From: a virus
IMG/VR virus record: IMGVR_UViG_3300018432_000014
Span: 1-64,000 of that record
Reading direction: 5' to 3' (one strand)
DNA: 64,000 nt
Shown: positions 32,861 through 51,530 of the stretch, piece by piece
Numbering within the stretch: the first letter of the stretch is position 1
Layout: the number at the start of each line of letters is the position of its first letter
Program-made: the position numbers and the translations under genes
Notes under the pieces: model-generated
Database searches by the model: none
Told to the model about the DNA's origin: nothing
What the model saw: only the letters and a program-made list of their open reading frames with translations

Positions 32861-32872
32861 GCCGAGGCCCGC

Positions 32873-32895
32873 GCCGCTCGAGATTCTCGAGCGGC
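32873..32895. repeat. Linker hairpin GCCGCTCGAGA-W-TCTCGAGCGGC (also at 34432-34454 and 51457-51479)
   Basis: 11-bp perfect arms; lies between a stop codon and the next class I element in all three copies. Confidence 0.85.
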
Positions 32896-32907
32896 TGCCG
32901 GGAGTTG

Positions 32908-32946
32908 TGAAATACCGCTAGCGCTTTTCAAGATGCGAGCTAGGAT
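32908..32946 (+). promoter_or_regulatory. Class I element copy 5
   Basis: -10 box TAGGAT; 45 nt before ATG 32953. Confidence 0.9.
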
Positions 32947-32952
32947 CTAGGC

Positions 32953-33102
32953 ATGGACAACGCAGTAACACGGTACGAGATCGCGGTCGCCAAGATGAAA
33001 GACGCGGAAGCGCGCAACCTGTCACGCACGACGATCGCCAAGCGTTGGCGCGAAGTTTTCGCGGCAGAAGACGCTCTGAAAGCTCGCGATTTCTACCGCT
33101 GA
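32953..33102 (+). CDS. Cassette gene, 49 aa (MDNAVTRYEIAVAKMKDAEARNLSRTTIAKRWREVFAAEDALKARDFYR)
   Basis: Translated by hand; missing from the ORF track; start at the conserved 45-nt position. Confidence 0.75.
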   Translation: MDNAVTRYEIAVAKMKDAEARNLSRTTIAKRWREVFAAEDALKARDFYR

Positions 33103-33139
33103 AAACACCGGGGCCCTCTCGAGGGCCCGCGCCGCTCGG

Positions 33140-33159
33140 GTGTAGCCCCGGGGCCACAC
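33140..33159. repeat. Dispersed palindrome copy (GTGTAGCCCCGGGGCCACAC)
   Basis: Inside a cassette linker. Confidence 0.85.
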
Positions 33160-33181
33160 GGCAGCAATCGACCCGCGCCGG

Positions 33182-33220
33182 TGAAATACCGCTAGCGCTT
33201 TTCAAGACCTGAGCTAGAGT
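33182..33220 (+). promoter_or_regulatory. Class I element copy 6 (consensus)
   Basis: TGAAATACCGCTAGCGCTTTTCAAGACCTGAGCTAGAGT; 45 nt before ATG 33227. Confidence 0.9.
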
Positions 33221-33226
33221 CAAAAC

Positions 33227-33457
33227 ATGGAAACGAAATCGACCCGCGCCGCTAGGTTCGACGCTCTTCTTGCGGCAGCTGCCGCCCGCACACCGGGATA
33301 CGCTGCAGCCGCCGCCCGTTGCGCGGCAGAAAACGCCGCTCTCAAGACGCGCGACCTCGCCGACGCACATCGTGCGAGCCGTAGCCCGCGACCCGACGGC
33401 GGCGAGGATGACGGTTGGGGTGACTATTGCTCGCCCCGATCGGCTTTCGAGGTGTGA
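33227..33457 (+). CDS. Cassette gene, hypothetical 76 aa
   Basis: Its TGA stop is the first triplet of class I copy 7. Confidence 0.7.
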   Translation: METKSTRAARFDALLAAAAARTPGYAAAAARCAAENAALKTRDLADAHRASRSPRPDGGEDDGWGDYCSPRSAFEV

Positions 33458-33493
33458 AATACCGCTAGCGCTTTTCAAGACCTGAGCTAGGAT
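33455..33493 (+). promoter_or_regulatory. Class I element copy 7
   Basis: 45 nt before ATG 33500. Confidence 0.9.
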
Positions 33494-33499
33494 CTGAGC

Positions 33500-33721
33500 A
33501 TGGACACGAAGCAAGCCCTCAAGTTGATTTACCGCCACACACACCGCGATTCGCGCGGAACACTCTCGGATTGCAAGACGATCCTCGTCTACCGCAACGG
33601 GACCTGCCTCGTGCCGCTCGAGGCCCTCACGGCTGCCGAGATTGCCGAGCGCTTGCCGCTCGCAGAACGCCGCGAAGCCGAGCGGCTCGAGAAGATCGCA
33701 GCGAAAAAGGCGGCGAAATGA
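33500..33721 (+). CDS. Cassette gene, hypothetical 73 aa
   Basis: Start fixed by the class I spacing. Confidence 0.75.
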   Translation: MDTKQALKLIYRHTHRDSRGTLSDCKTILVYRNGTCLVPLEALTAAEIAERLPLAERREAERLEKIAAKKAAK

Positions 33722-33912
33722 TCACCCGCGCACAACTCGACTCGCACGTCTGCGACCGATCGCGATCGTGGTGGGCACACGACGCACAAGGGATCCCGCT
33801 CTGTCGGGTCTGCGACACCTGCGAGCGTGCCAAGCTCTCGCGATACCGGCCCGAGATCCTGAGCGGATACGATCAATCTGACGTCGACGAGCCGATCGAG
33901 GCAGACGACTGA
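33718..33912 (+). CDS. Small Cys-rich protein (64 aa)
   Basis: ATGA overlap with the previous gene; DAQGIPLCRVCDTC..RYRPEIL. Confidence 0.7.
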   Translation: MITRAQLDSHVCDRSRSWWAHDAQGIPLCRVCDTCERAKLSRYRPEILSGYDQSDVDEPIEADD

Positions 33913-34072
33913 TCCCGGGGCCCTCGAGCCCGTGCCGGGCCCGGCAATCGGAGCCCGGCCCTCGAGCCCGTGCCCGGCGACCCGCGCCGCTCGAGAGCTG
34001 CAGCTCGGGCCCGTGCCGACTCGAGGGCCCGCGCCGCTCGAGAAGCCCGCGCCGACAATCGACCGGGGCCGT

Positions 34073-34111
34073 TGAAATACCGCTAGCGCTTTTCAAGGCC
34101 TGAGCTAGATT
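34073..34111 (+). promoter_or_regulatory. Class I element copy 8
   Basis: -10 box TAGATT; 45 nt before ATG 34118. Confidence 0.9.
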
Positions 34112-34117
34112 CAAAAC

Positions 34118-34423
34118 ATGGCAAACGAAGTCGCAAACACCATCGTCGCGCAACTCAGCAATCGCGGTCTTTTCATGCTTGGCGCGAAAGACCTCGTCGC
34201 AGGCGAAAACAGCCTCACCTTCAAGATCGGCCGGAACAGCAAGACGATCTCGCACATCCGGATCACGCTCGATGCGAGCGACACCTACACGGTCGAGTCG
34301 ATCCGAGTGCGCAAGAGTGCGGGCGTGCCGGTCGTGCGGATCGTCGAGACCTGCGGCGACGTGTATGCGGACAGTCTCAAGCGCACGATCGAGACGTTTA
34401 CCGGCATGTACATGAGCTTGTGA
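34118..34423 (+). CDS. Cassette gene, phage-type hypothetical 101 aa
   Basis: VANTIVAQL..MLGAK..DTY..DVYAD.L..IE..TGMY.SL. Confidence 0.8.
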   Translation: MANEVANTIVAQLSNRGLFMLGAKDLVAGENSLTFKIGRNSKTISHIRITLDASDTYTVESIRVRKSAGVPVVRIVETCGDVYADSLKRTIETFTGMYMSL

Positions 34424-34466
34424 GAGGCCGCGCCGCTCGAGAATCTCGAGCGGCTGCCGGGGCTTG

Positions 34467-34488
34467 TGAAATACCGCCAGCGCTTTTC
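34467..34488 (+). promoter_or_regulatory. Class I element copy 9, truncated (palindrome only, no -10)
   Basis: TGAAATACCGCCAGCGCTTTTC runs directly into GGGCCCGCGCCG. Confidence 0.75.
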
Positions 34489-34519
34489 GGGCCCGCGCCG
34501 AAAATCGGCTCGATGGCCC

Positions 34520-34548
34520 TGGACATCAGGGCCTGCATCCGGGACCAC
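34520..34548 (+). promoter_or_regulatory. Class II promoter
   Basis: TGGACA-17(tcagggcctgcatccgg)-GACCAC-6-ATG 34555. Confidence 0.6.
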
Positions 34549-34554
34549 TAAACG

Positions 34555-34815
34555 ATGGCAAGCAAGAAAAAACCGACGGACCTCACGACTCAGATACTGA
34601 TCCAAATTCGCGATGAGATCCGGCAGACAAACGAGCGACTCGAGCGACTCGAGCGCCGGCAGACCGACTCGGAAACGCGATTGGCGACCGAGCTTGTCGC
34701 GCTCGCGAAAGCCGTCAACGATGTACGCGTGCTGATCATCGACATGCGTCAGGATCAGCGCCGCATGGAAGCGCTCGAGGAACGCGTGCTCCATGTCGAG
34801 CGCAAGGTGAGCTGA
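34555..34815 (+). CDS. Small coiled-coil protein, 86 aa
   Basis: Heptad pattern; class II promoter upstream. Confidence 0.75.
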   Translation: MASKKKPTDLTTQILIQIRDEIRQTNERLERLERRQTDSETRLATELVALAKAVNDVRVLIIDMRQDQRRMEALEERVLHVERKVS

Positions 34816-34839
34816 TTCTCGAGCGGTCTCGAGCGGTTG

Positions 34840-34878
34840 TGAAATACCGCTAGCGCTTTTCAAAGACCGAGCTAAGCT
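34840..34878 (+). promoter_or_regulatory. Class I element copy 10
   Basis: -10 box TAAGCT; 45 nt before ATG 34885. Confidence 0.9.
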
Positions 34879-34884
34879 CTGGTT

Positions 34885-35061
34885 ATGACAACGACGAGCA
34901 ACGCGAAGACCTGGATTGTGGCCGAGTATCGCAACGACGACTTTTTCGGGCAGACCGAGAACCTCACTCAGAAAGAGGCGACCGACCTCGCAAACAAGAT
35001 GAGGGCAGCCGGTCTCGAGGTGACGATCGCAGACGGCCCGGGCGACCTCGAGAGCTTCTGA
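34885..35061 (+). CDS. Cassette gene, 58 aa (MTTTSNAKTWIVAEYRNDDFFGQTENLTQKEATDLANKMRAAGLEVTIADGPGDLESF)
   Basis: Translated by hand; missing from the ORF track. Confidence 0.75.
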   Translation: MTTTSNAKTWIVAEYRNDDFFGQTENLTQKEATDLANKMRAAGLEVTIADGPGDLESF

Positions 35062-35123
35062 GACCCGATCGGGCCCGGCAAACACCGGGCCCGCGCCGTT
35101 TCCGAGCCGCGCAGACGACCTCG

Positions 35124-35162
35124 TGAAATACAGCTAGCGCTTTTCAAGACTTGAGCTAGAGT
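35124..35162 (+). promoter_or_regulatory. Class I element copy 11 (TACAGC variant)
   Basis: 45 nt before ATG 35169. Confidence 0.9.
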
Positions 35163-35168
35163 CAACTC

Positions 35169-35708
35169 ATGGACAGCAACGCAACCGAGATGTCGACCGA
35201 GGCCAAAAAGATTCACCCTTTCGAGCGCAACGGTCTCGGGATCGCGCCCTTCAAATACGTAGGGTTCTACGTCTCGAAATACCAGGCGATCCCGGGCGAC
35301 CCGAGCTGCCCGATTCAGCCCGGCAGCTCGTGCGACCATTGCGGCACGGCGATCATGAATGTCTGCCGGATCAAGTCGGCCGACGGTCGCGAATTCAAGG
35401 TCGGATCCGACTGCGTTGGCAAGGTCGGGCGCGCGCACGATGCCGCTCTCTTGACCGCCGTCGAGGCCGCCGCCCGGAAACGTGCCGGCGCCGCTCGTAA
35501 GAGCCTCGCAGCGGCCCGCGCTGCAGAGCTGGCGACCTTGCTCGCAACCGAGACGGTCCGGGCGACCCTGGCCCTGCAGCCGCACCCGCACCCCTACCGC
35601 GCCGGGCTCGGTGACACGCTTCTCGACGCGATCGAGTTCTCGGTCAAGCGCAGCGGCGCCGCTGGCATCGCTCGCACGCTCAAGACGGTCAAGGCGCAGA
35701 TCGCCTGA
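35169..35708 (+). CDS. Cassette gene, Zn-binding hypothetical 179 aa
   Basis: CDHCGTAI..FKVGSDCV. Confidence 0.8.
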   Translation: MDSNATEMSTEAKKIHPFERNGLGIAPFKYVGFYVSKYQAIPGDPSCPIQPGSSCDHCGTAIMNVCRIKSADGREFKVGSDCVGKVGRAHDAALLTAVEAAARKRAGAARKSLAAARAAELATLLATETVRATLALQPHPHPYRAGLGDTLLDAIEFSVKRSGAAGIARTLKTVKAQIA

Positions 35709-35830
35709 CCGGGGCCCCTCTCGAGGGCCCGAGCGGCTCGAGGGCAGGAGGCCCGCTGCCCGAGCATGTCGCTCGAAATCCGCGCCGCTCGAGGGCTGCA
35801 GCGGTTCGCAGAGAAATCGACTCGGTCAGA

Positions 35831-35869
35831 TGAAATACCGCTAGCGCATTTCAAGACCTCGGCTAGGCT
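35831..35869 (+). promoter_or_regulatory. Class I element copy 12
   Basis: -10 box TAGGCT; 45 nt before ATG 35876. Confidence 0.9.
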
Positions 35870-35875
35870 CTAGAC

Positions 35876-36667
35876 ATGGACACGAACAAACCGACTCTCA
35901 GCGTGAATCTCATCGCAATCGTCGACGGCTACCTCAGCGGCAAGCGCCGCGAGAAGTTTCGCGACAGCATCTCGATTCTCAACCGCTCGCTCGCACAAGG
36001 TGCCTGGACACCGCGGGGCTCGGTCAAGGCGAGCGCTGGTTTCTATCAGGGTCTCGCGAAAAAGATCGGCAATCTTCAACCTTACGAGCTTGACGCATGC
36101 GTACGCTACGGCCAGCCGATGCGGTCGGTGACACTTACAGACGAGATGTGCATGCAACTGTCGTCGTCTCGCGTGTTGCGCGCTTGGGTCACGCTCTGCT
36201 CGGAAGTCGCTGCAGCTCGCGCGTTTCTCGATGCGGCCCGCCCGACGCCGGTTGTCACGGCGATCGGTCTCTCGCCGAAAGTCACGAAGACTCTGAAAGA
36301 CTGCAATCTCGACATCGATCTCGCGACGATCAAGCCCGCGAAGATCAGCTTTTACGAAGTGCAGGCGCGCGATAAGGCCGGCGAATTGCGGGTTGATCGC
36401 GACGGTAAGCCGGTGATGGAGCGAGTCTATTTCGTCGACTGGAGCGCGGGTTGCCTTTTCAACCGGTCGCGGTTTGCGATGGGTGACGGCTGCCACGCTT
36501 GCGGCAAGACGATCCCGAGCGGCCGATTCGTGCCGATCGAGGCGAGCTGCAAGAAGCTCGGGCAGAAGGTCGCCCTCTGGCTCGGCTGCGACTGCGCGCG
36601 GAACATCTTTGGCGTCAAGGACATCGGCATCGACAAGAATGCGAAAGCGCCGACCGCGGGCGAGTGA
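35876..36667 (+). CDS. Cassette gene, hypothetical 263 aa with C-terminal Zn motif
   Basis: CHACGKTI..WLGCDCA. Confidence 0.8.
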   Translation: MDTNKPTLSVNLIAIVDGYLSGKRREKFRDSISILNRSLAQGAWTPRGSVKASAGFYQGLAKKIGNLQPYELDACVRYGQPMRSVTLTDEMCMQLSSSRVLRAWVTLCSEVAAARAFLDAARPTPVVTAIGLSPKVTKTLKDCNLDIDLATIKPAKISFYEVQARDKAGELRVDRDGKPVMERVYFVDWSAGCLFNRSRFAMGDGCHACGKTIPSGRFVPIEASCKKLGQKVALWLGCDCARNIFGVKDIGIDKNAKAPTAGE

Positions 36668-36708: not shown

Positions 36709-36737
36709 TTGCATACGGGTCCCGCATCCGGGACACT
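36709..36737 (+). promoter_or_regulatory. Class II promoter
   Basis: TTGCAT-17(acgggtcccgcatccgg)-GACACT-6-ATG 36744. Confidence 0.7.
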
Positions 36738-36743
36738 AAAGGT

Positions 36744-37052
36744 ATGGATTACGTCAGCAAGACGGGGCTCGCGAAAATGCGCAAGGTCGTGAGAGAGACT
36801 CGAGCGCTTTATGCGGAGGCCCGATGGGTTGCGCTCGCAGCCGGCAGACAGGCTCGGTCGCGTGACACGAGCCGAGCCCGGCTGATCCTCGAAGACGCAC
36901 TCGACGCGGCTCTCGAGGCTCGCCAGACCATGCGGCATTACGCAGGCGTGCTTGCCAAGATGGAGGCTCTCCCGATCGAGCCGCATGCAGGTCGAGTGAG
37001 CCCGGCTGCGCTCGCTCGGCTGCGCTCGCTCGGCCGACTCAATCCGGCTTGA
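36744..37052 (+). CDS. Hypothetical 102 aa
   Basis: ATG at the class II position. Confidence 0.7.
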   Translation: MDYVSKTGLAKMRKVVRETRALYAEARWVALAAGRQARSRDTSRARLILEDALDAALEARQTMRHYAGVLAKMEALPIEPHAGRVSPAALARLRSLGRLNPA

Positions 37053-37500: not shown

Positions 37501-37504
37501 TCCA

Positions 37505-40248: not shown

Positions 40249-40884
40249 ATGAGGATCGACGCCGACCGCTGGCCCCTTGATTGGCCTACTGACTGGCCAC
40301 GCACGACACGCCGCGAAAACACCGCTCGCTACAGTCTTTCGTTCGATGCGAGTCGCGAGCGTCTAGTCCGACACCTGAAGATGCTCGGTGCGACCGAGTT
40401 CGTTCTCTCGACGAATGTTCCGTTGCGCAAAGATGGCTTCCCGCGCACGACGACTGAGCCGCGCGATCCGGGCGTCGCGGTCTATTGGGTCGAGGCGTAC
40501 GCGCAGCCTGCGAACGGTAAGCCCTCGACTCGAGCGTACCGATCGAAGGTGATTGCGTGCGACCACTGGACTCGCGTCCGAGACAACTTGCGTGCATGCG
40601 GCATGGCGATCGAAGCGCTGCGCGCGCTGCAGCGATCGGGCGCGACTCAGGTGATCGACCGCGTGTTCACGGGCTTCGCGGCGTTGCCTGCGAATGCGAG
40701 TAAGAGCAACTGGCGAACGGTGCTCGGCTTCGATCCTGAGATCGAGATCGTCTCGCCCGAGATCCTCAAGGCCGCATACTTCGCGGCGTCGCTTGCTGCA
40801 CATCCGGATCGCGGCGGCAGTCACGAGGAACAATCCCGCGTCAACCAAGCGCATGTCGACGCGCGACGGGAGCTTGGTCTATGA
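40249..40884 (+). CDS. Phage protein with C-terminal DnaJ J-domain
   Basis: WPLDWP..WPRT N-terminus; WRTVLG..AY..HPDRGGS C-terminus. Confidence 0.85.
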   Translation: MRIDADRWPLDWPTDWPRTTRRENTARYSLSFDASRERLVRHLKMLGATEFVLSTNVPLRKDGFPRTTTEPRDPGVAVYWVEAYAQPANGKPSTRAYRSKVIACDHWTRVRDNLRACGMAIEALRALQRSGATQVIDRVFTGFAALPANASKSNWRTVLGFDPEIEIVSPEILKAAYFAASLAAHPDRGGSHEEQSRVNQAHVDARRELGL

Positions 40885-42144: not shown

Positions 42145-42561
42145 GTGAGCCAGATCCCTCGACTGGTCTCGCCGACAGAGGTCATGCGAGTGCTGAGTTG
42201 CGGGCGCAGAAATGCGTATGTCGTGATGGCGCGTCTTGGCGGTCACAAGATCGAGGGCATCGGCTGGCGTGTGTCTGAGAAACGACTGCGTGAATACGTT
42301 TGTAAACTCGAGCGAGGATGTAGCGACGAATGGAAACCAAATCTCGAAAGCGAAAGAACGGCAAACGATTCTGGTACGCAACCATCCATTGGTCCGATGG
42401 ACAACGGATGTGCAGCAAGCTCGTCGCAACCCACGTTGCAGACGATGGAACTGCAGCCTCAAGAAAAGCAGCCGAGCAAAACGGCAGAGAGATCCAAAAT
42501 ACATTCGCGAATCGTCGTAGCAGCAAAGAGAGCACGCTCCTTACGCTCGAAAAGGCGATAG
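42145..42561 (+). CDS. Excisionase-like HTH protein overlapping the integrase
   Basis: LVSPTEVMRVLSCGRRNAY..WRVSEKRLREY. Confidence 0.55.
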   Translation: MSQIPRLVSPTEVMRVLSCGRRNAYVVMARLGGHKIEGIGWRVSEKRLREYVCKLERGCSDEWKPNLESERTANDSGTQPSIGPMDNGCAASSSQPTLQTMELQPQEKQPSKTAERSKIHSRIVVAAKRARSLRSKRR

Positions 42562-43454
42562 CTGATCTCGTTTTGGCAAAAACGCTTGCAGGGAAGTCAG
42601 ATGCCACTCTCGAGATCATTGCAGACAAGGCAGCTCGTCTCTTCGAGGTGTTCGGGCCCGACTGCAGGATGTACGCGATCGATCGACAGGCTGCTAAAGC
42701 CTATCTCGAGGAGAGATCGAAGCCGGATGAAAACGGAAACGTGCCAGCGGCGACGACGTTGTATCGCGAGTTTCTGATCCTCAAGCAAGCGTTCAACGAA
42801 GCCGGCATACCGCATCCCGAATGGCCCGAGATACCAGACGCGCCGCCATCACGTGATCGTATTCTTGAGGTACCTGAACAGATCAAGTTGCTTGCGGCGG
42901 TCGCACCTCAACGACGAGTGCTTGTCCAAGCGTATCTGCAGCTCGGGGGCATGCGTAAGAGCGAGCCAGAGACGATCAGTCGCGTGAATTGGAAAACACG
43001 CATGGCCACTATCAACGGCACGAAGACTAGACGATCGGTCCGTGAGGCGCCGATCCCGGATGGTCTTTATGAGTTGATGAAGGAAATGGGCGATCCGTTT
43101 CCTGGATTCGAGCCATGGGCAAACGCTGATCGTGATTTGCGTGCGGCGTGCGTGCGAGCTGAGATCCCGATCGTGAGCTTCAATGATCTGCGGCGTACAT
43201 ACGCGACGTTTATGGCGCGCTCAGGATGCCCTCAACTCTTGCTTGCTCGGTACATGGGAACAAGCGTCAAGATGATCGACGAGGTCTATGCTCGGCTCGA
43301 GGCAGAGGGCGAGCATCATCTCGCATCGGTTCGAAAGGGCGTGCCCGACCTCGAGCGACACAAGCGCAAGGCGAGCAAAGCAATCCGGGCTCGAGAGGCA
43401 CTCGCTGCGCCAATCGCGAAAGCCGTCGACAAGGCACGTGCGAAGACACCCTAG
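42330..43454 (+). CDS. int: Tyrosine integrase
   Basis: N-terminal arm-binding-like segment; GMRKSE, GTKT, NDLRRTYAT, MGTS..MIDEVY. Confidence 0.88.
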   Translation: METKSRKRKNGKRFWYATIHWSDGQRMCSKLVATHVADDGTAASRKAAEQNGREIQNTFANRRSSKESTLLTLEKAIADLVLAKTLAGKSDATLEIIADKAARLFEVFGPDCRMYAIDRQAAKAYLEERSKPDENGNVPAATTLYREFLILKQAFNEAGIPHPEWPEIPDAPPSRDRILEVPEQIKLLAAVAPQRRVLVQAYLQLGGMRKSEPETISRVNWKTRMATINGTKTRRSVREAPIPDGLYELMKEMGDPFPGFEPWANADRDLRAACVRAEIPIVSFNDLRRTYATFMARSGCPQLLLARYMGTSVKMIDEVYARLEAEGEHHLASVRKGVPDLERHKRKASKAIRAREALAAPIAKAVDKARAKTP

Positions 43455-43672
43455 CGAGCCTCGTGTTCGACGCACCATCGGATCAACTCGCTTCGCGGTA
43501 TGATGAGTCGCGAAGCGCCCGACAGCTTGGATCGCATCGCTCTCAACTCACCGGCTGCGATCAAGCGCTGCAACGACCTCGGGTGCATGCACAGTGCGCG
43601 CGCTGCATCTCGCAGGCCGACCGTTGCGGGCAGTGACGATTCGAGATCGCGCAGATGAGGGGCGATCGCTAC
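43451..43672 (-). CDS. MerR/Xis-type HTH protein (start uncertain)
   Basis: GLRDAARALCMHPRSLQRLIAAGELRA..IIPRSEL. Confidence 0.6.
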   Translation of the reverse strand, partial: VAIAPHLRDLESSLPATVGLRDAARALCMHPRSLQRLIAAGELRAMRSKLSGASRLIIPRSELIRWCVEHEAR

Positions 43673-44401
43673 GGGTACCCTCGACGGGCTCGACGTGCTG
43701 CGACCTCTGCGATGTCTGCCTCGCTCGGCTGAACCTCTGAGCGAGGCAGTGCTTTTTTTGCGAGAGGCTTTTCGTCGAGTGTGGGTCGAGCCGCAAACTT
43801 TTGAGCGAGTAGCACTGCCACGCGACGAGCAATGCGCTCGATGTCTTCGTCGCTGAGCTTGACGTCGATCATGGCTTGGCCCGTTTGCGCAACGTCTGGC
43901 GCGCGTCTTTGAGAGCAGCTGCAGCTTCGTCGGGTCGCAGCTTTGCAAGCTCAGTTTTTGCGGTGCGCTGCACACGGGCGGCGATCGTTTGCATGCGTTT
44001 GGCTGCGGGGCTCAGGTCGAGCCGGTCGTATGGTCCTTGCGCGCGGCGCTTGCCCTCGACCGCTCGCACGAGCTGAGCGAGCAGAGCCTCGATTGCGCAG
44101 AGCCGAGCGTTGAGTTCCGGGTCCATGGTCAATCCGCTAGCACGGTTGGCACGAGGCCCGTACACGGCCCGGGCGAATCGCACAGGGCCCGAATCTTCCA
44201 GAGACGGCAGAATCTCAGATCTGACGACTAGCATAGTCCCAAAACAGTCGAGGTTTACAGCGTGATCAGCATGCTAAGAGATCGCGACCTCAACACGTCC
44301 CGCATCCGGGGCGCACTTCTCTGCAGTTTGAGGGCCAAAGTGACACTATCAAAAGTGTGTAGTGTTGGATCTGCGACACAACACAATTTCGATTTTAGGT
44401 C

Positions 44402-44621
44402 TGGGCTCGCTCTGGGCTCCGAAAACGACCCCTGCGAGACCTAAAGGAACAGGTGCGCGCGAATCCTACACTGTCTTTTGCCGTGAAATCATTGGATAAA
44501 ATAGTGGAGTCAGGGGGGATCGAACCCCCGGCCTCCGCACTGCCAGTGCGAAAGTCATTCCGAAATCCCCTGTGATTGCAGCTAGTTACAGCCGCGAAAT
44601 TCTTGGGCTCGCTCTGGGCTC
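44402..44621. mobile_element. attP region: tRNA-derived core flanked by 18-bp direct repeats
   Basis: TGGGCTCGCTCTGGGCTC at 44402-44419 and 44604-44621; lower-GC non-coding DNA about 1 kb from int. Confidence 0.75.
44505..44550 (-). other. 3' half of tRNA-Ala(GGC), attP core
   Basis: Minus strand CGCA-CTGGCAG-TGCG GAGGCC GGGGG-TTCGATC-CCCCC TGACTCCA: anticodon arm, T arm and acceptor 3' strand; 5' half absent. Confidence 0.85.
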
Positions 44622-44827
44622 AGGCTGCCGCGGGGTTGTGGGCCGTTTGAGCCCGTCCTGCCTACCAGCGCCGTGCTCGGGCTTTCTGAGCCCGAGCCTC
44701 TCAGCGGTCTTACCACGGCAGGGCCCGACCGACCTAGCGGCCTGCCCGAGACCGCCCCTATGGCGAGCCCGAGGGGCCTGCGATTGGGCTTCTCCCGAGC
44801 CCGTCTCGAGGGCTACCGTCGGGCCCC

Positions 44828-46208: not shown

Positions 46209-46751
46209 ATGGGCGTGCAACACGAGATGTTCCCCGATCACGTGCAACCGCTGGCTCCGAGAGACGAGCCCGCGCCGGGCGAGCCGCAGGTAGCGGCACC
46301 CTCCGGCCGGCGCCGCTTGAAGGCTGCAGGGCTCGCGGACAAGCCGTCTGCGGTCGAGTTCGATGTGGTCGCCGCAAGCGAGGGCCGTGGCCCGTGGTCG
46401 ACACGCACGAGAGCTTCGACCGAGGCCTATCACGCGAAGACGATCGCAGCCGAGCCCGCGCCGGTGTGCATGGTCTCGGTCCAGATCACTCGAGGCTCGC
46501 CCGAGCCGTTACCCGATCGGGTCGAATCGCTGCAGGCTGCGCTCGCGAAAGCCAAGCAAACGATCACCGAGCTACGCGCGCGCATCATCCGAGCCGATAC
46601 GGTCGCCGAGATGTGGCGGTCGGCCTCGGATCCGGAAAATCTCGAGCGTCGAAAGTGCGGGCTCGTGATCCGACAGATCCTGCAGACCGACGGCGATCAA
46701 AGTCTCAAGACGGCACTCGCAGAGCTTGCGCGCGAAAGGGGCGAGACATGA
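46209..46751 (+). CDS. Hypothetical 180 aa
   Basis: ORF with coiled coil; coupled to the next gene. Confidence 0.5.
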   Translation: MGVQHEMFPDHVQPLAPRDEPAPGEPQVAAPSGRRRLKAAGLADKPSAVEFDVVAASEGRGPWSTRTRASTEAYHAKTIAAEPAPVCMVSVQITRGSPEPLPDRVESLQAALAKAKQTITELRARIIRADTVAEMWRSASDPENLERRKCGLVIRQILQTDGDQSLKTALAELARERGET

Positions 46752-47029
46752 AAGCAGAGACGACAGCGGCACCGACTCGGCGCGTGCTGAAACGACGCGA
46801 GGCGATCGAGGTGTTCCAAGCCGAGCCGCAACGCGAGATGACAAGCGCCGATCTCGCGAGAGCGCTCTGTTGCTCGAGGGCCGACGCGATCGCGACGTTG
46901 CGATCGCTCGAGACCGCTCTCACGATCACGAGCCGGCTCGTCTCGAGCCCGCACCGAGAGGGCCTCGGTCGACGGCGGCGGTTCTACCGCCTGCATCGGC
47001 GAGTCGCTGCAGCCCCGCGTCTCGCGTGA
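46748..47029 (+). CDS. Winged-HTH protein
   Basis: MTSADLARALCCSR..LRSLE..GRRRRFYRL. Confidence 0.6.
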   Translation: MKAETTAAPTRRVLKRREAIEVFQAEPQREMTSADLARALCCSRADAIATLRSLETALTITSRLVSSPHREGLGRRRRFYRLHRRVAAAPRLA

Positions 47030-47110
47030 CTCTCAATCGGTCACAACAGTCACTCTAGCTGAGACGTTGAAACGTACAAGCTGTATTTCAGCCGCCCGGG
47101 CCCGCGCCGC

Positions 47111-47293
47111 TCAGACCTTGACGGTGCACGCGACAGGATACTGCCCGGCAGTCTGCGACATCCAACGGCCCGCGCCGACCTCGTACACGTGCAAGCCGCG
47201 AAGCACGTACGTATGCGGCGCCTCGCCCGGGCCGACCGAAAACGTGTTGCGCACTTCCATCCACTGCCCGTTGACTCTGATCTGTTTCGCCAC
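47111..47293 (-). CDS. Hypothetical 60 aa
   Basis: GTG 47293 at the class II position. Confidence 0.65.
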   Translation of the reverse strand: MAKQIRVNGQWMEVRNTFSVGPGEAPHTYVLRGLHVYEVGAGRWMSQTAGQYPVACTVKV

Positions 47294-47299
47294 ACAACA

Positions 47300-47328
47300 A
47301 CCGTAGCTCATCCGGGACACTAACGCAA
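47300..47328 (-). promoter_or_regulatory. Class II promoter
   Basis: TTGCGT-17(tagtgtcccggatgagc)-TACGGT-6-GTG. Confidence 0.65.
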
Positions 47329-47483
47329 GAGGCTAGGCTCGAGATTCAACCGGCGCCGCTCGAGGCCCGCGCCGCTCGAGGCGAGCCCGAGCAGACCGGA
47401 TCGCGTATCCGCGGAAGACTAGAGAAGCGCCGGGCGCTATCCGGGACACTAGCGCCCGATTCCCGAGGCGCTGTCGCAAGTTA

Positions 47484-47522
47484 TGAAATACCGCAAGCGC
47501 TTTTCAGGACCCGAGCTAGAGT
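47484..47522 (+). promoter_or_regulatory. Class I element copy 13
   Basis: TGAAATACCGCAAGCGCTTTTCAGGACCCGAGCTAGAGT; GTG 46 nt from its start. Confidence 0.85.
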
Positions 47523-47529
47523 GTCTGTT

Positions 47530-48459
47530 GTGAGCACGACGATGAAAACGCTTGGTTTCGGGATTGAGATTGAGACCGTAGGTCTCCGCCGCACGGCGAT
47601 TGCCGCTGCGATTGCATCGGTGCTCGGCACCGACTCGCACGGCGGCGAGACGGCGACCGACTCGCTCGGTCGCACTTGGAAGGTTGTGCCCGATGGCAGC
47701 CTTGCAGGCGGCTACGACAACAGCGGCGAGATCGTCTCGCCCAAACTCACCTACGCCGACCTCGACACGTTGCAGGCGATTGTGCGTGCAGTGCGCGCAG
47801 CTGGCGCGCGGGTCGATGCCTCTTGCGGCATTCACGTGCACATCGACAGCTCGGTCTTTACGGCTAAGTCGGTCGTGAATCTCGTCAAGATCGTGCACAA
47901 GCAAGAGCGCTTGATCGAGCATGCCTTGCGCATCGCGCAAAGCCGTCTCGAGCGCTACTGCCTGCCGATCGATGCTGGTTTTATTCAGCGGCTCGAGGCG
48001 AGCCCGGTTCGCACGATGGCCGACGTCTCGCGCGCTTGGTACGGCTACGACAACTCGAGCCCGACGCGCTACGACTCGAGCCGCTACCACGGCCTCAACC
48101 TCAACAGTCACTTTTTCCGCGGCACCGTTGAGTTTCGCTACTTTACGGGCTCGTTGCATGCGGGCGAGGTCAAGGCGTATGTGCAGTTTTCGCTCGCACT
48201 CGCGGCCCGCGCGCTCACGACGAAATCGGCCTCGAGCAAGCGCCGCGAATTCAACGTGTCGACCGCGAAGTACGACTTTCGCGTGCTCATGATCAAGCTC
48301 GGCCTCATCGGTGACGAGTTCAAAACGTGCCGCCTACACCTCTCGAAGCATCTCGAGGGTACGAGCGCGACGAAGCGCGCCGCGGTTGTCGCGGTTGCCG
48401 CGCCCGAGGCCGCTGCAGCCTCCGAGTCGACCGACAACGGTGCGAACCATGGCTCATAA
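47530..48459 (+). CDS. Putative amidoligase (COOH-NH2 ligase, Amidoligase_2-like)
   Basis: FGIEIE, DGSL, EIVSP, SCGIHVH, RY.GLNL, TVEFR. Confidence 0.88.
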   Translation: MSTTMKTLGFGIEIETVGLRRTAIAAAIASVLGTDSHGGETATDSLGRTWKVVPDGSLAGGYDNSGEIVSPKLTYADLDTLQAIVRAVRAAGARVDASCGIHVHIDSSVFTAKSVVNLVKIVHKQERLIEHALRIAQSRLERYCLPIDAGFIQRLEASPVRTMADVSRAWYGYDNSSPTRYDSSRYHGLNLNSHFFRGTVEFRYFTGSLHAGEVKAYVQFSLALAARALTTKSASSKRREFNVSTAKYDFRVLMIKLGLIGDEFKTCRLHLSKHLEGTSATKRAAVVAVAAPEAAAASESTDNGANHGS

Positions 48460-48949: not shown

Positions 48950-49314
48950 CGACGATCGTGTTTGTGTACGGCTCGCTCCTTGCAGGGCAGGGCAATCACC
49001 GAGTGCTGCGCACGGCTCGCTTCGTCGGGCGCGCGCAGACCGCGCCCGAGTACACCATGCATTCGCTAGGCGGGTTTCCGGGCGTTGTGAGCGGCGGCAG
49101 CACCCCGATCGAGGGCGAGTGCTACGAGGTCGACGGCCCGACGCTCGAGGCTTTAGACCGGCTTGAGGGACACCCAAGTTTCTACCGCCGAACGCGGATT
49201 GTGCTAGAGGACAAGATGTCGGTTGAAATCTACTTGCTCACTTCCGAGCAAGTCGACGAGCTGCCGATCGTGGTTTCGGGTTGCTGGTTACAGTACCGAC
49301 AGGGGCAAAGATGA
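48946..49314 (+). CDS. Gamma-glutamylcyclotransferase (AIG2-like) protein
   Basis: VFVYGSL..GECYEV..LDRLEGHP..Y.R. Confidence 0.88.
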   Translation: MTTIVFVYGSLLAGQGNHRVLRTARFVGRAQTAPEYTMHSLGGFPGVVSGGSTPIEGECYEVDGPTLEALDRLEGHPSFYRRTRIVLEDKMSVEIYLLTSEQVDELPIVVSGCWLQYRQGQR

Positions 49315-49556
49315 GAATCGAAATTCGTGATGGTCGCGTGCTGCAGGGCACGGCATTGCAGATTGTAAAAGCGATGCAGGATCTGGCATTCGGCGTCGAC
49401 GATTTTACGGTTGCGCAGTACGTCGCTTGGGTTGTCGACAACACGCTGCGCATCGAAGAGCTAGCGCTCGACGTCAAGGGCGAGACAGACGACGAGCTTG
49501 CGCAGTCGCTCGTCGACGAGATGCTGCGGCACAACTTCGCGCGAAAGCTCGACTGA
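49311..49556 (+). CDS. Hypothetical 81 aa
   Basis: ATGA-coupled to GGCT. Confidence 0.65.
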   Translation: MRIEIRDGRVLQGTALQIVKAMQDLAFGVDDFTVAQYVAWVVDNTLRIEELALDVKGETDDELAQSLVDEMLRHNFARKLD

Positions 49557-49562
49557 GACGAG

Positions 49563-49591
49563 TTGACAACGAGGCCCGCATCCGGGACACT
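49563..49591 (+). promoter_or_regulatory. Class II promoter
   Basis: TTGACA-17(acgaggcccgcatccgg)-GACACT-6-ATG 49598 (61-aa Cys-rich ORF 49598-49783). Confidence 0.75.
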
Positions 49592-49763
49592 ATAAGCATG
49601 GCTGCGAAACGTCGTCGTCGGTGTGTAGTGTGCGAGCGAGAATGCGTGCTTCTTTTGTGCGCGCGATGTTCGCGCTCATACGACAGGTCTTGTCGGAGAG
49701 ACGACTCGACGCTCGCAGCTGTCATCGAATGGGCCGCGACACGAGCCCGCAGGTTTGTGAAAG

Positions 49764-50669
49764 GTGATCCACGTGGCCAGTAAACAGTTTCGCCCGATGC
49801 TCGCAGAGACGCTCGAGTCAGTGACTCAGCTTCGTTTTCCGGTGCTCGTGTCACCCAAGCTCGACGGCATTCGGTGCGTGATCCGAGAGGGCAAAGCTCT
49901 GAGCCGGAGCCTCAAACCGATCCCGAACGAAGCCGTGCGGAAGTTTCTCGAGGGCCGCCCGGAACTTGAGGGCCTCGACGGCGAGTTGATGGTCCACGGC
50001 GCGACGTTTCAGACCGTCACGAGCACGTTTATGAGCCGCTCGGGCGCGTTGCCGGGAGGTTGGTATTTCGGCGTGTTCGATGCTCTGCCGATTGTCGAGC
50101 GCGAGCCCTACACGACTCGGTTGATTCGAGCGACGGCTGCGGTCGCTGCAGCGGGCCCGCACATCGTGCTTGTCGAGCAGAGCGAGATCGCGAATGCGGA
50201 TCAGCTCGATACGTACGAGGCGAAAGCTCTCGAGCTTGGCTTCGAAGGCGTGATGATTCGTCGCGCTGCAGCGTTCTACAAGCACGGCCGTTCGACCGCG
50301 ACCGACGGCGCCTTGCTCAAGCTCAAGCGCTTTGCCGACGGCGAGGCGACGGTAATCGGCTTTGCCGAGCGCATGCACAACGGCAACATTGCGACGACGA
50401 GCGCGATCGGTCGCACGCAACGATCATCAGCGAAAGCAGGCAAGTCGCAGACGGGCTCGCTCGGTGCGTTGCTTGTGCGTGAGTGCGCGACCGGGATCGA
50501 GTTTGAGGTCGGCACCGGTTTCACCGAGTCGCAACGCCAGTCATTTTGGCGCGAGCAGACCGAGTTGCTCGGTCGCACGATCAAGTACAAGCATTTCGTG
50601 ATCGGCGCGATGCTCAAGCCGCGGTTCCCGACCTTCGTCGGCTTCCGAGCGGCCGAAGACATGGGCTAG
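49764..50669 (+). CDS. lig: ATP-dependent DNA ligase
   Basis: PKLDGIR, LDGEL, FGVFD, FEGVMIR, LKLKRF, VGTGF, PRFP. Confidence 0.93.
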   Translation: MIHVASKQFRPMLAETLESVTQLRFPVLVSPKLDGIRCVIREGKALSRSLKPIPNEAVRKFLEGRPELEGLDGELMVHGATFQTVTSTFMSRSGALPGGWYFGVFDALPIVEREPYTTRLIRATAAVAAAGPHIVLVEQSEIANADQLDTYEAKALELGFEGVMIRRAAAFYKHGRSTATDGALLKLKRFADGEATVIGFAERMHNGNIATTSAIGRTQRSSAKAGKSQTGSLGALLVRECATGIEFEVGTGFTESQRQSFWREQTELLGRTIKYKHFVIGAMLKPRFPTFVGFRAAEDMG

Positions 50670-50834
50670 CGCGTCGCTCGAGGGCCCGAGCTGCCCGATC
50701 GCCTCGAGGCCGCTACGTCGACGAGCCCGCTCGAGGCCCGCGCCACTCAGAGCCTGCAGGCTACCGCCGATCGGCAGCTCGAGGCCCGCGCCGACCTGCA
50801 GCCCGCGCCGCTCGAGACCGCCGATCGGCTCTCG

Positions 50835-50873
50835 TGAAATACAGCTAGCGCTTTTCAAGACCTGAGCTAGAGT
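50835..50873 (+). promoter_or_regulatory. Class I element copy 14 (TACAGC variant)
   Basis: 45 nt before GTG 50880. Confidence 0.9.
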
Positions 50874-50879
50874 CTTGGT

Positions 50880-51143
50880 GTGGCGAGCAAGAACAAAGAC
50901 GACGGTTATCGAGATTCGATCGACACTGCCGCGTATGAATGCGATCAGGCGAAAGCAGGTCGACCTGAGCGCAGTTGGGCAGATGCAATCGATGCGCGTG
51001 CTGATCAGGTTGAGGCTGAACAACTTCTTCCCGAGCTATCTAGCGCCAAACGGATCCGCGTCGTTCGGCACATGCGCGACACTGCCGAGGCGAAACGTCG
51101 GCCGGTTGCCGAAGGGCTGACGTGGTTGAGAAAACGACAGTAA
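50880..51143 (+). CDS. Cassette gene, hypothetical 87 aa
   Basis: Start fixed by the class I spacing. Confidence 0.7.
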   Translation: MASKNKDDGYRDSIDTAAYECDQAKAGRPERSWADAIDARADQVEAEQLLPELSSAKRIRVVRHMRDTAEAKRRPVAEGLTWLRKRQ

Positions 51144-51156
51144 TCGCGAGCGGTTG

Positions 51157-51195
51157 TGAAATACCGCTAGCGCTTTTCAAGACCTGAGCTAGAGT
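51157..51195 (+). promoter_or_regulatory. Class I element copy 15 (consensus)
   Basis: 45 nt before GTG 51202. Confidence 0.9.
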
Positions 51196-51201
51196 CTTGG
51201 T

Positions 51202-51447
51202 GTGGGCAACAAAACGAAAACGAAACGAATCTCACCAACGTACAAAGACCGTGGAATCGTGGCGCATGTGACGATCGTCGCGCGTCGGGGCAGTCAGCGA
51301 GGGCTCGGCACGGGCTCGCGATACAACGTATGCGGCGCAGAGCTAACCGCCTACGACATGAGCGTTGCAGAAGCCAAGGGCGAGAAGCTCGCAGGCATGC
51401 TCGAAGAGTGGCTCACATGCCCGGCATGTCGTGCGCTCGAAAAGTGA
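51202..51447 (+). CDS. Cassette gene, hypothetical 81 aa
   Basis: H..CG..TCPAC Zn motif. Confidence 0.7.
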   Translation: MGNKTKTKRISPTYKDRGIVAHVTIVARRGSQRGLGTGSRYNVCGAELTAYDMSVAEAKGEKLAGMLEEWLTCPACRALEK

Positions 51448-51491
51448 GAGGCCCGCGCCGCTCGAGATTCTCGAGCGGCTGCCGGGGCTTG

Positions 51492-51530
51492 TGAAATACC
51501 GCTAGCATTTTTCAAGACCTGAGCTAGAGT
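51492..51530 (+). promoter_or_regulatory. Class I element copy 16
   Basis: TGAAATACCGCTAGCATTTTTCAAGACCTGAGCTAGAGT. Confidence 0.9.

What the first reader, a model, noticed from the sequence alone, without database searches (positions are those of the whole stretch)
32861..51530. Whole cassette junctions are shared between two clusters about 15-19 kb apart, suggesting active shuffling
Seen: the linker GAGGCC(C)GCGCCGCTCGAGAWTCTCGAGCGGCTGCCGGG..TTG plus element follows a stop codon nearly identically at 32864, 34424 and 51448, and contains an 11-bp-arm palindrome. The variant CTCG-TGAAATACAGC occurs at 35124 and 50835. GAGCGGTTG-TGAAA occurs at 34840 and 51157. CAATCGACCCGCGCCGG-TGAAA occurs at 32528 and 33182. 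Linker subtypes are therefore interleaved across both clusters while the cargo differs. Inference: recent recombination or gene conversion among junctions, by the phage RecA or one of its two site-specific recombinases. Recombination between direct copies in the two clusters would delete the intervening int-attP-repressor region and give an obligately lytic derivative.
Basis: partly seen in the sequence, partly recalled or inferred. Interest (0 to 1): 0.75.

Follow-up and report, generated by a model that had tools for sequence, protein, structure and literature searches.

The report
Repeated junctions shuffle phage gene cassettes
An uncultured soil phage puts the same short control sequence in front of about sixteen small genes, and a related phage carries those genes in a different order and set, so the repeats work as swap points, as already known for T4-like phages.

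Summary
A 25-bp box, followed by a -10-like GCTAGnnT and a start codon about 45 nt from the box start, occurs 16 times in the record (0 expected by chance). There is also one decayed, cargo-less copy.

The units are best read as repeated promoters for leaderless small genes. Several are preceded by GC-rich hairpins. This matches the composite terminator/promoter junctions (PeSLs) of T4-type phages.

A complete 110-kb relative (about 80% nt identity) keeps the box almost unchanged but carries the cassettes in another order:
- one cassette has moved;
- at least eight are present in only one genome;
- two are replaced in the second cluster.
Most breakpoints lie in or beside the junctions.

The spacer between hairpin and box is genome-specific, which indicates concerted evolution. 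Upstream and downstream halves assort independently. Tandem neighbour duplication therefore does not explain the pattern, and recombination at the junctions is supported.

Not shown: that shuffling is ongoing, which enzyme does it, and the proposed inter-cluster deletion that would yield a lytic derivative. The integrase is an unlikely agent because it differs between the two phages.

This scan has already reported many PeSL-like arrays on other DNA. I rate this a new member of a known kind, of moderate interest.

The parts
31461..31505 (-). junction element (box + -10-like + ATG at offset 45), drives a 71-73 aa gene leftward
   Evidence: orthologue in the relative has 89% aa identity
31190..31234 (-). 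junction element, leftward; start codon at offset 39/44, not 45
32124..32171 (+). junction element before cassette A (32172-32474); preceded by a class II promoter/operator at 32056-32073
32528..32572 (+). junction element before cassette B (32573-32860); CAATCGACC linker type
32861..32907 (+). hairpin linker after B (23-bp palindrome)
   Evidence: -28.4 kcal/mol, z -3.0
32908..32952 (+). junction element before cassette C (32953-33102)
33182..33226 (+). junction element before cassette D (33227-33457); D has no orthologue in the relative
33455..33499 (+). junction element before cassette E (33500-33721) plus overlapping second gene E2 (33718-33912)
34073..34117 (+). junction element before cassette F (34118-34423)
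   Evidence: F matches phrog_9437
34424..34466 (+). hairpin linker after F
   Evidence: -27.4 kcal/mol, z -3.1; orthologous hairpin follows F in the relative
34467..34488 (+). truncated element (first 22 nt only), a recombination scar; downstream is a class II-type promoter and gene 34555-34815, which the relative lacks
34840..34884 (+). junction element before cassette H (34885-35061); GAGCGGTTG linker
35124..35168 (+). junction element (A9 variant, CTCG linker) before cassette I (35169-35708)
35831..35875 (+). junction element before cassette J (35876-36667); in the relative J sits between A and B
36722..36739 (+). class II promoter/operator before gene K (about 36744-37052); K has a class I element in the relative
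47045..47090 (-). 17th, decayed copy (6 mismatches in the box, GCTAGAGT intact) followed by only a 3-codon frame; the relative has two minus-strand cassettes here
47484..47529 (+). junction element before the amidoligase gene (47530-48459)
50835..50879 (+). junction element (A9 variant, CTCG linker) before an 87-aa gene (50880-51143); replaced by unrelated cargo in the relative
51157..51201 (+). junction element (GAGCGGTTG linker) before an 81-aa gene (51202-51447); replaced in the relative
51448..51491 (+). hairpin linker
   Evidence: -31.6 kcal/mol, z -4.1
51492..51536 (+). junction element before gene 51569-51817 (this gene has a GGAG ribosome site, so it is not leaderless)
7187..8323 (+). 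RecA-family recombinase, candidate catalyst of homologous exchange (inferred only)
   Evidence: PF00154, 5.8e-18
22285..22992 (+). small serine recombinase (resolvase/invertase type), conserved in the relative
42330..43454 (+). tyrosine integrase, between the two clusters; replaced by a different integrase in the relative

Best explanation
Each junction is a composite regulatory module. After the stop codon of one small gene comes a GC-rich linker. Three linkers hold a strong 23-bp palindromic hairpin and others hold weaker hairpins. The linker probably ends or insulates the upstream transcript.

Next comes a nearly invariant 25-bp box at about -45 to -21, then GCTAGnnT as the -10 region. The start codon lies 6 nt after it, so transcription would begin at the start codon itself (leaderless mRNA). 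The box lies over the -35 position but has no host-type -35 hexamer. It is most likely read by a dedicated factor. Candidates are the sigma-70-family protein this phage lineage encodes, or a dimeric regulator binding the imperfect palindrome.

The same 45-100 bp flanks many unrelated small genes in direct orientation. General homologous recombination between copies therefore deletes, inserts, moves or replaces whole genes from start codon to stop codon, within one genome or between co-infecting relatives. It also homogenises the junctions by gene conversion.

Shown here: the repeats, their conservation, the fixed geometry, the hairpins, the rearranged relative, and concerted evolution. Inferred: promoter and terminator activity, the sigma factor link, and the recombination pathway.
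For: Copy number and geometry:
- 16 copies against 0 expected.
- 12 of 16 have ATG or GTG exactly 45 nt from the box start, and two more at 46 and 48.

Conservation across 39 copies from three genomes:
- 13 of 25 box positions are invariant.
- T34, A35, G36 and T39 are present in 35, 36, 33 and 36 of 39 copies.

Selection on the box and the cargo:
- The box is 21-25 of 25 identical in 9 orthologous junction pairs, while the adjacent coding DNA is 68-87% identical.
- dS is 0.31-1.65.
- Cargo genes have dN/dS of 0.14-0.34 in 10 pairs.

Structure:
- The element itself has no RNA structure (z +1.07).
- The three hairpin linkers fold at -27 to -32 kcal/mol with z -3.0 to -4.1.

Sigma factor: the relative encodes a Sigma70_r2 protein. 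The first ~215 bp of this record match its 3' end.

Rearrangements against the relative:
- Here the order is A B C D E+E2 F g H I J K. In the relative it is A J B X1 C X2+E2 F E X3 X4 X5 H I K.
- X1 is flanked by two junction copies where this genome has one.
- Both cassettes between the ligase gene and the 51492 junction are replaced.
- Two minus-strand cassettes in the relative correspond to one decayed, empty element here.
- 34467 is an element cut after nt 22.

Concerted evolution and mosaicism:
- The spacer between hairpin and box is CCGGGRSTTG in 3 of 3 copies here and CCGCAAGTTA in 4 of 5 copies in the relative.
- Hairpin and GAGCGGTTG linkers each occur both with the cluster-2 downstream half and with another one.
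- Upstream versus downstream similarity gives r = 0.17, p = 0.12. Upstream similarity versus genomic distance gives r = -0.11 (15 of 16 junctions, 34467 dropped because it has no downstream half).

Precedent: PeSLs in T4-type phages (PMC2839356, abstract and sections 13 and 16 read).
Against: - A sigma-70 consensus scan finds none of the elements, because they have no canonical -35. Terminator-like hairpins with a T tail are not enriched, 8 found against 6.3 expected.
- The hairpins have no U tract. Linkers without the 23-bp palindrome fold no better than shuffles by a clear margin (z -0.25 to -2.3).
- No transcription data exist. No RNA run was listed.
- Both genomes are metagenome assemblies. 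Contigs of the likely source run break at every repeat, so cassette order rests on the original assemblies. The longest exact repeat is 42 nt. The J move does not depend on long repeats.
- Not every breakpoint is at an element. The E/E2 boundary is a stop/start overlap, and the right end of the J move lies at a class II promoter.
- About ten indels or replacements of 200 bp or more also lie outside the arrays in the other ~27 kb compared.
- dS of 0.3-1.6 means the two phages are old relatives, so seven or more events need not mean a high rate.
- The host is unknown, so the promoter rules applied are generic.
Confidence: 0.7

Rival explanations
1. Site-specific cassette system. The 24-bp imperfect palindrome in the box is a crossover site for the conserved small serine recombinase (or the integrase). 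Cassettes would be excised and re-inserted as in integrons or multiple-inversion systems.
For: - The box is an imperfect palindrome, 8 of 12 pairs around GCTAGC (read directly).
- A resolvase/invertase-type recombinase is present and conserved in the relative.
- Some breakpoints lie inside the box (34467).
Against: - The box sits at a fixed distance from a -10-like motif and the start codon in 12-14 of 16 copies. A promoter explains this and a crossover site does not.
- With 14 direct copies, an unregulated recombinase would delete the array.
- The shared homology extends well beyond the box, into linkers up to 45 nt and into the downstream half, as expected for homologous exchange and conversion.
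- The integrase differs between the two phages while the junctions do not.
- No attC-like folded site and no IntI-type integrase were seen.
Confidence: 0.06
2. Purely regulatory repeats. The junctions are alike only because one regulator or sigma factor must read them. Cassette differences between the phages arose by ordinary illegitimate recombination filtered by selection, and the repeats play no part in it.
For: - The box is conserved between genomes as strongly as within them (mean pairwise identity 0.92, 0.89 and 0.90), as selection alone would give.
- Indels are also common outside the arrays.
- Some breakpoints are not at elements.
Against: - Selection on a promoter does not explain near-identity of 40 nt of linker upstream of the box in copies 1.5-18.6 kb apart (36-38 of 40).
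- It does not explain the genome-specific spacer shared by non-orthologous junctions.
- It does not explain the X1 cassette being flanked by two junction copies where this genome has one.
- Both translocations lie in the arrays, and none was seen elsewhere.
Confidence: 0.15
3. Assembly artefact. The different cassette orders are mis-joins or strain chimeras made by short-read assemblers at the repeats.
For: - Both records are metagenome assemblies.
- This record is a linear fragment estimated 67% complete.
- Independent contigs of the best-holding run end in every repeat.
Against: - The longest exact repeat is 42 nt, shorter than typical read lengths.
- Many differences are cargo genes present in only one genome, which mis-joining cannot create.
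- The J junction in the relative has its own box variants (TGAAATAGTGC) and follows the stop codon of A directly.
- Orthologous adjacencies such as F-hairpin and H-I are shared by both assemblies.
Confidence: 0.05
4. RNA-level element. The box and GCTAGAG act in a long polycistronic transcript, as a processing site or as a ribosome-binding device (GAG/GGA 7-10 nt before the start), and not as a promoter.
For: - AGAG or AGGA lies 7-10 nt before the start codon in many copies.
- Canonical promoter and terminator scans are negative.
Against: - The element is predicted to be unstructured as RNA (z +1.07).
- The most conserved downstream positions are T, A and T in a TAnnnT pattern (35, 36 and 36 of 39 copies). 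The purines a ribosome site would need are variable (positions 37-38).
- Two copies point leftward at a divergent control region.
- The 51492 unit carries a separate GGAG site further downstream for its gene.
Confidence: 0.08

Closest known systems
PeSLs (promoter-early stem-loops) of T4-type phages (Arbiol et al. 2010, PMC2839356; Comeau et al. 2014, PMC4122927)
   Same: - Repeated intergenic modules that combine a stem-loop with a promoter.
- They sit right before small genes of unknown function in variable regions.
- Insertions, deletions and replacements between close relatives are bounded by the modules.
- An extra gene is flanked by two modules where the relative has one.
   Different: - The promoter is not the sigma-70 consensus (no -35) and may depend on a phage sigma factor.
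- The genes are mostly leaderless and lack a Shine-Dalgarno site.
- Only 3 of 16 junctions hold the strong hairpin, and none has a U tract.
- The phage carries an integrase, has about 110 kb when complete, and is unrelated to T4.
- Promoter and terminator activity and mini-circles were shown by experiment for PeSLs and not here.
Short conserved boundary sequences of lambdoid phages and the ~50-bp repeat exchange in Cluster I mycobacteriophages (as described in PMC3029335, passages read)
   Same: Short conserved intergenic sequences serve as sites of homologous exchange that produce mosaic genomes.
   Different: Here the repeat is a long, many-copy regulatory unit arranged in arrays. It is not an occasional boundary.
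32-bp intergenic repeat around genes 37-41 of Arthrobacter cluster AU phages (preprint 10.1101/2020.01.10.891226, passages read)
   Same: A repeat lies on both sides of each small gene in one array. That array is the only place where relatives show translocations and deletions.
   Different: - Six copies in one 1.5-kb array, against 16-22 copies in two clusters plus single sites.
- The passages read assign no promoter or hairpin anatomy to it.
- There is no sequence relation.
Intergenic repeats of halovirus HF2 (PMC8707807, abstract read)
   Same: Two classes of conserved intergenic repeats carry promoters, and their positions are conserved in relatives. This phage also has two repeat classes.
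   Different: - HF2 is an archaeal virus with archaeal promoters.
- The abstract stresses conserved positions, not shuffling.
- The proteins of this phage are not halophile-like.
Integron gene cassettes (attC / IntI); comparison from general knowledge, no paper read here
   Same: Arrays of single small genes bounded by a repeated, partly palindromic site, with cassette gain, loss and reordering.
   Different: - Integron cassettes are usually promoterless and are moved by a dedicated tyrosine integrase at folded attC sites.
- Here every cassette has its own promoter-like unit.
- No IntI-type integrase is linked to the array, and homology extends beyond any single site.

Membership tests
PeSL-type composite terminator/promoter shuffling modules | Repeated intergenic motif placed immediately upstream of small genes of unknown function in variable regions | tested here: met
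   16 copies, 15 directly before an open frame. 10 of 10 cargo proteins tested have no Pfam family above its cut-off.
PeSL-type composite terminator/promoter shuffling modules | Contains a sigma-70 consensus early promoter (-35 and -10) | tested here: not met
   Only a -10-like TAGnnT is present. The consensus scan finds none of the elements. The region at -35 is GCTAGCG.
PeSL-type composite terminator/promoter shuffling modules | Contains a stable stem-loop that acts as terminator or attenuator | tested here: inconclusive
   A strong hairpin is present in 3 of 16 junctions (z -3.0 to -4.1). Six other linkers were folded and gave z -0.25 to -2.3. No T tract follows. Function is not testable here.
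PeSL-type composite terminator/promoter shuffling modules | Insertions, deletions and replacements between close relatives are bounded by the motif | tested here: met
   X1, X3-X5, D, g, both cluster-2 cassettes and the 47-kb minus-strand cassettes are all bounded by elements. The left end of the J move lies at the first base of the element.
PeSL-type composite terminator/promoter shuffling modules | Excised mini-circles or deletion products detectable in phage DNA | not testable with these tools
   Only assembled contigs of two runs were available, and they end in the repeats.
PeSL-type composite terminator/promoter shuffling modules | Host genome is a T4-type myovirus | tested here: not met
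   No close phage relative was found. The best portal, PolB and RecA matches are 25-36% identical, to Rhizobium, Rhodobacter and Streptomyces phages and halovirus records. A tyrosine integrase is present.
Integron | IntI-type integrase adjacent to the array with attI and a common promoter; promoterless cassettes ending in attC | tested here: not met
   The integrase lies 6.5 kb from cluster 1 and is replaced by a different one in the relative. Each cassette has its own promoter-like unit.

The most novel reading that the evidence does not exclude
The junctions form a dedicated cassette-exchange system and are more than passive homology. The invariant 24-bp imperfect palindrome would be both the promoter of a phage-sigma regulon and the crossover site of the conserved small serine recombinase. 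The strand-polar CCCGCGCCG words packed into the linkers would stimulate exchange. Whole leaderless genes would then be cut out and re-inserted precisely from start codon to stop codon, making this a phage-borne analogue of an integron.
Probability: 0.06. Interest if true: 0.8.

Novelty: new member of a known kind. Interest (0 to 1): 0.4.

Why it matters
This finding shows that the PeSL principle also operates in an unrelated, integrase-bearing soil phage. In that principle, one repeated regulatory junction both expresses small accessory genes and lets them be swapped as whole units. Here the anatomy differs: the starts are leaderless, the promoter is non-consensus and possibly read by a phage sigma factor, and there are two interchangeable promoter classes. 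The finding also gives a clean pair of genomes in which single events can be read base by base: one cassette moved, one inserted between duplicated junctions, one element cut in half, and one left empty. In practice the box is a handle for finding the accessory genes of this phage group. The repeats are also a warning for short-read assembly of such genomes.

Tried and rejected
- Near-identical DNA search of 24 kb against the phage collection: no match.
- Haloarchaeal virus reading. It was prompted by the best PolB matches (25% identity) and by the HF2 intergenic repeats. I rejected it because the proteins are not acidic: D+E 13.2%, K 4.7%, and many have pI above 9.
- Host assignment was left open.
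  - The integrase's nearest Atlas clusters are Planctomycetota, Acidobacteriota and Verrucomicrobiota.
  - Cargo gene F has homologues in Agrobacterium, Rhodobacter, Sinorhizobium, Ralstonia and Vibrio phages.
  - Gene 40249-40884 has homologues in cyanophages, Erythrobacter phages and actinophages.
  - An actinobacterial host, which I first favoured from the TAGnnT plus leaderless pattern, is not supported by these hits.
- Sequencing runs. Two DNA runs were listed and both are held only as contigs. No RNA holder was listed. When laid, the contigs break at the repeats. The three listed joints have 21-24 nt on the shorter side, do not lie at junction elements, and are not counted. No verdict on rearranged molecules.
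- T7-type RNA polymerase family search in both phages: nothing found, but the control genomes also gave nothing, so this is uninformative.
- Single hits of the box pattern:
  - The hit in an Alteromonas chromosome (GC 45%, 4 mismatches to the core, no -10 or start geometry) was taken as chance.
  - L007 is a real third relative, syntenic with the relative's 68-78 kb region.
- L013 (ligase 40% identical) has no comparable repeats. L014 was not examined.
- Pfam and PHROGs searches on cargo proteins gave no functions.
- A literature search for phiC31 early promoters and conserved inverted repeats found nothing usable in the held library. That comparison is recalled only and is left out of Closest known systems. 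Supplementary files of the PeSL papers were not opened.

Full report
WHAT THE RECORD IS. The window is the first 64 kb of a 73,487-bp virus record. The source classes it as a linear fragment, estimated 67% complete. It has 62% G+C. It encodes:
- a family B DNA polymerase, a RecA homologue, an SbcC-like ATPase, an amidoligase, an ATP-dependent ligase and a portal protein with a LAGLIDADG insert;
- a tyrosine integrase;
- a small serine recombinase;
- one tRNA-Ala.

No close relative is in the phage collection. The best protein matches are 25-36% identical. The proteins are not halophile-like. The host is unknown.

The core TGAAATACCGCTAGCGCTTTTCAAG occurs 16 times at three or fewer mismatches, 14 on the plus strand and 2 on the minus strand. 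None was expected in shuffles. No further copy appears at up to five mismatches in the whole record. One decayed copy appears at six mismatches, on the minus strand at 47090. The three hairpin junctions share 36-38 of the 40 nt upstream of the box. The longest exact repeat between junctions is 42 nt. One correction: the copy at 34467 is only the first 22 nt of the element.

ANATOMY OF THE ELEMENT. I aligned 39 copies: 16 from this record, 22 from the relative and 1 from a third contig.
- Positions 1-24 are nearly fixed, and 13 positions are invariant.
- Positions 26-29 are variable.
- G-A-G-C-T-A-G at positions 30-36 and T at 39 are conserved. T34, A35, G36 and T39 are present in 35, 36, 33 and 36 of 39 copies.
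- In 12 of 16 copies of this record an ATG or GTG lies exactly 45 nt after the first base. Two more lie at 46 and 48.

A TAnnnT hexamer six bases before a purine-initial start codon is the geometry of a bacterial promoter that makes a leaderless mRNA. This rule comes from general knowledge and was not tested here. The position where a -35 hexamer would lie reads GCTAGCG. A sigma-70 consensus scan sees none of the elements. The box is an imperfect palindrome around GCTAGC.

The complete relative encodes a protein with a sigma-70 region 2. The first ~215 bp of this record match the 3' end of that gene. A phage sigma factor is therefore a candidate reader of the box. This is an inference.

As RNA the element is unstructured (z +1.07), which fits a function in DNA.

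THE LINKERS. The three hairpin linkers fold at -27.4 to -31.6 kcal/mol with z-scores of -3.0 to -4.1. The other linkers contain shorter GC-rich hairpins that are not clearly better than shuffles (z -0.25 to -2.3). None is followed by a T tract, and T-tailed terminator-like sites are not enriched (8 against 6.3 expected). A terminator or insulator role is therefore plausible only by position and by analogy.

THE CARGO. The genes after the elements are real. In ten orthologous pairs, dN/dS is 0.14-0.34 with dS of 0.31-1.65. Ten cargo proteins gave no Pfam family above its cut-off. PHROGs gave four families of unknown function. The gene after 51492 most likely starts at 51569 behind a GGAG site, so that unit has a leader.

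THE RELATIVE. Exact searches with the box found one complete 110,308-bp viral contig with direct terminal repeats. The same contig is held in two collections. They also found a 36.8-kb metagenome contig that is syntenic with a part of that relative which this fragment lacks. The relative is about 80% identical in DNA over most shared genes. It has 19 copies of the box at three or fewer mismatches and 22 at five or fewer. They lie in the same two clusters plus single sites. Between orthologous junctions the box is 21-25 of 25 identical, while the adjacent coding DNA is 68-87% identical. The box is thus under selection in both lineages.

CASSETTE ORDER DIFFERS. In this record cluster 1 reads A B C D E(+E2) F g H I J K. 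In the relative it reads A J B X1 C X2(+E2) F E X3 X4 X5 H I K. The individual events are these.
- J, with the class II promoter that follows it, sits between I and K here and between A and B in the relative. The left end of the shared block is the first base of the element in both genomes.
- As a result, B has a class I element here and a class II promoter there. K shows the reverse.
- X1 lies between two junction copies in the relative where this genome has one. The left copy keeps only the right arm of the hairpin, so one breakpoint is at the centre of the palindrome.
- D and g occur only here. X1 to X5 occur only in the relative.
- E has moved relative to F.
- In cluster 2, both cassettes between the ligase gene and the 51492 junction are replaced by unrelated ones.
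- At 47.0-47.1 kb the relative has two minus-strand cassettes. This genome has a single decayed element followed by a three-codon frame.

The element at 34467 is cut after nt 22, exactly where similarity to the relative ends. Two boundaries are not at class I elements: the E/E2 stop-start overlap and the right end of the J move. About ten indels or replacements of 200 bp or more also lie outside the arrays in the remaining ~27 kb compared. Both translocations are inside the arrays.

EXCHANGE AMONG JUNCTIONS WITHIN A GENOME. In the alignment of the eight hairpin junctions, the spacer between hairpin and box is CCGGGRSTTG in 3 of 3 copies here. It is CCGCAAGTTA in 4 of 5 copies in the relative. 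This includes junctions that are orthologous by their flanking genes (before C, after B). That pattern is concerted evolution. The two phages differ by 0.3-1.6 substitutions per synonymous site, so the homogenisation is younger than their split.

The linker type and the downstream half of the element also assort independently:
- hairpin linker with the cluster-2 downstream half at 51492, and with another half at 32908;
- GAGCGGTTG linker with the cluster-2 half at 51157, and with another at 34840.

All four combinations exist. Over 15 junctions (34467 left out because it has no downstream half), upstream and downstream similarity are not significantly correlated (r = 0.17, p = 0.12). Upstream similarity does not follow genomic distance (r = -0.11). 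Tandem duplication of neighbours therefore does not explain the pattern.

WHAT IS NOT SHOWN.
- The only runs holding this DNA are kept as contigs. These end in every repeat and cannot show rare rearranged molecules.
- The enzyme is unknown. General homologous recombination is the simplest reading, because homology extends over 45-100 bp and conversion tracts are seen. The phage RecA is a candidate only by its presence.
- The integrase is replaced by a non-homologous one in the relative, while the junctions stay the same. This argues against it.
- The serine recombinase is conserved and cannot be excluded.
- The proposed deletion between the clusters is possible in principle. Both genomes, however, keep the intervening 15-19 kb in synteny apart from the integrase module. 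No such product was seen.

COMPARISON WITH WHAT IS KNOWN. The closest description is the PeSL of T4-type phages. PeSLs are about 100 bp long. They are composite sigma-70 promoter plus stem-loop motifs in front of orphan genes in hyperplastic regions. Recombination between them explains the indels between close relatives and yields mini-circles (PMC2839356, abstract and sections 13 and 16 read; PMC4122927, abstract read).

Related ideas are:
- the short boundary sequences of lambdoid phages and a ~50-bp repeat exchange in Cluster I mycobacteriophages (PMC3029335, passages read);
- a 32-bp repeat flanking a shuffled five-gene array in Arthrobacter cluster AU phages (preprint 10.1101/2020.01.10.891226, passages read);
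- the promoter-bearing intergenic repeats of halovirus HF2 (PMC8707807, abstract read).

This case works like a PeSL but fails two membership features: the consensus promoter and a T4-type genome. Its own traits are leaderless starts, a non-consensus and possibly phage-sigma-dependent promoter, and two promoter classes that swap between the same genes.

This scan has already followed up several PeSL-like arrays on other DNA. The kind is therefore not new to it either.

VERDICT.
- Observation: confirmed.
- First reading: partly supported. Recombination at junctions is supported. Ongoing activity, the enzyme and the lytic-deletion corollary are not shown.
- Novelty: new member of a known kind.
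- Interest: 0.4.

Noticed in passing
window 1-215; L017:1408-2166: The complete relative encodes a 252-aa protein with a sigma-70 region 2. This record begins inside the 3' end of the orthologous gene, so the phage group has its own sigma factor. It may read the repeated box.
   Followed up: partly
window 32056-32073, 34520-34552, 36722-36739, 47306-47323, 49576-49593, 54148-54165: There is a second repeated promoter/operator class (CCG-N4-CGGGACACTAA, then a start codon a few bases on): 7 matches against 0.33 expected. It swaps with the class I element in front of the same genes: B and K carry opposite classes in the two phages.
   Followed up: partly
window 31594-35098, 46269-47374, 50785-51460: The 9-mer CCCGCGCCG occurs 29 times (3.6 expected), 27 of them on the plus strand. 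It is concentrated in the cassette linkers, including next to the minus-strand cassettes. It is strand-polar, unexplained, and could bear on recombination.
   Followed up: no
window 41969-44782 vs L004:429-2970: The integrase module differs between the two phages. Here it is a 374-aa tyrosine integrase plus tRNA-Ala, and in the relative it is an unrelated 440-aa tyrosine integrase with no tRNA. This suggests different integration sites.
   Followed up: partly
L002:11830-11990 and L011:1-200: The relative's contig begins and ends in a 15-bp tandem repeat (CGGCGCCCTCGAGCC)n. It lies in the divergent control region between the leftward and rightward cassettes. The 'direct terminal repeat' call for that contig may rest on this array.
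   Followed up: no
window 58189-61227: The portal gene (1012 aa) carries a LAGLIDADG-type insert, probably an intein or homing endonuclease domain.
   Followed up: no
window 23797-23800 vs L002:3209-4217: The relative has about 1 kb extra inside or beside the gene at 23399-25075. This may be a mobile insert.
   Followed up: no
L007:7920-7965: A third, more distant contig carries one copy of the element (1 mismatch in the box) before a gene related to the relative's 69766 cassette. This lies in a region that the present fragment lacks.
   Followed up: partly
window 31245-31466 (-): The first leftward cassette gene (73 aa, 89% identical in the relative) has a weak match to NikA-like ribbon-helix-helix proteins (E 5e-4, below the cut-off). 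It is a candidate small DNA-binding regulator at the divergent control region.
   Followed up: no
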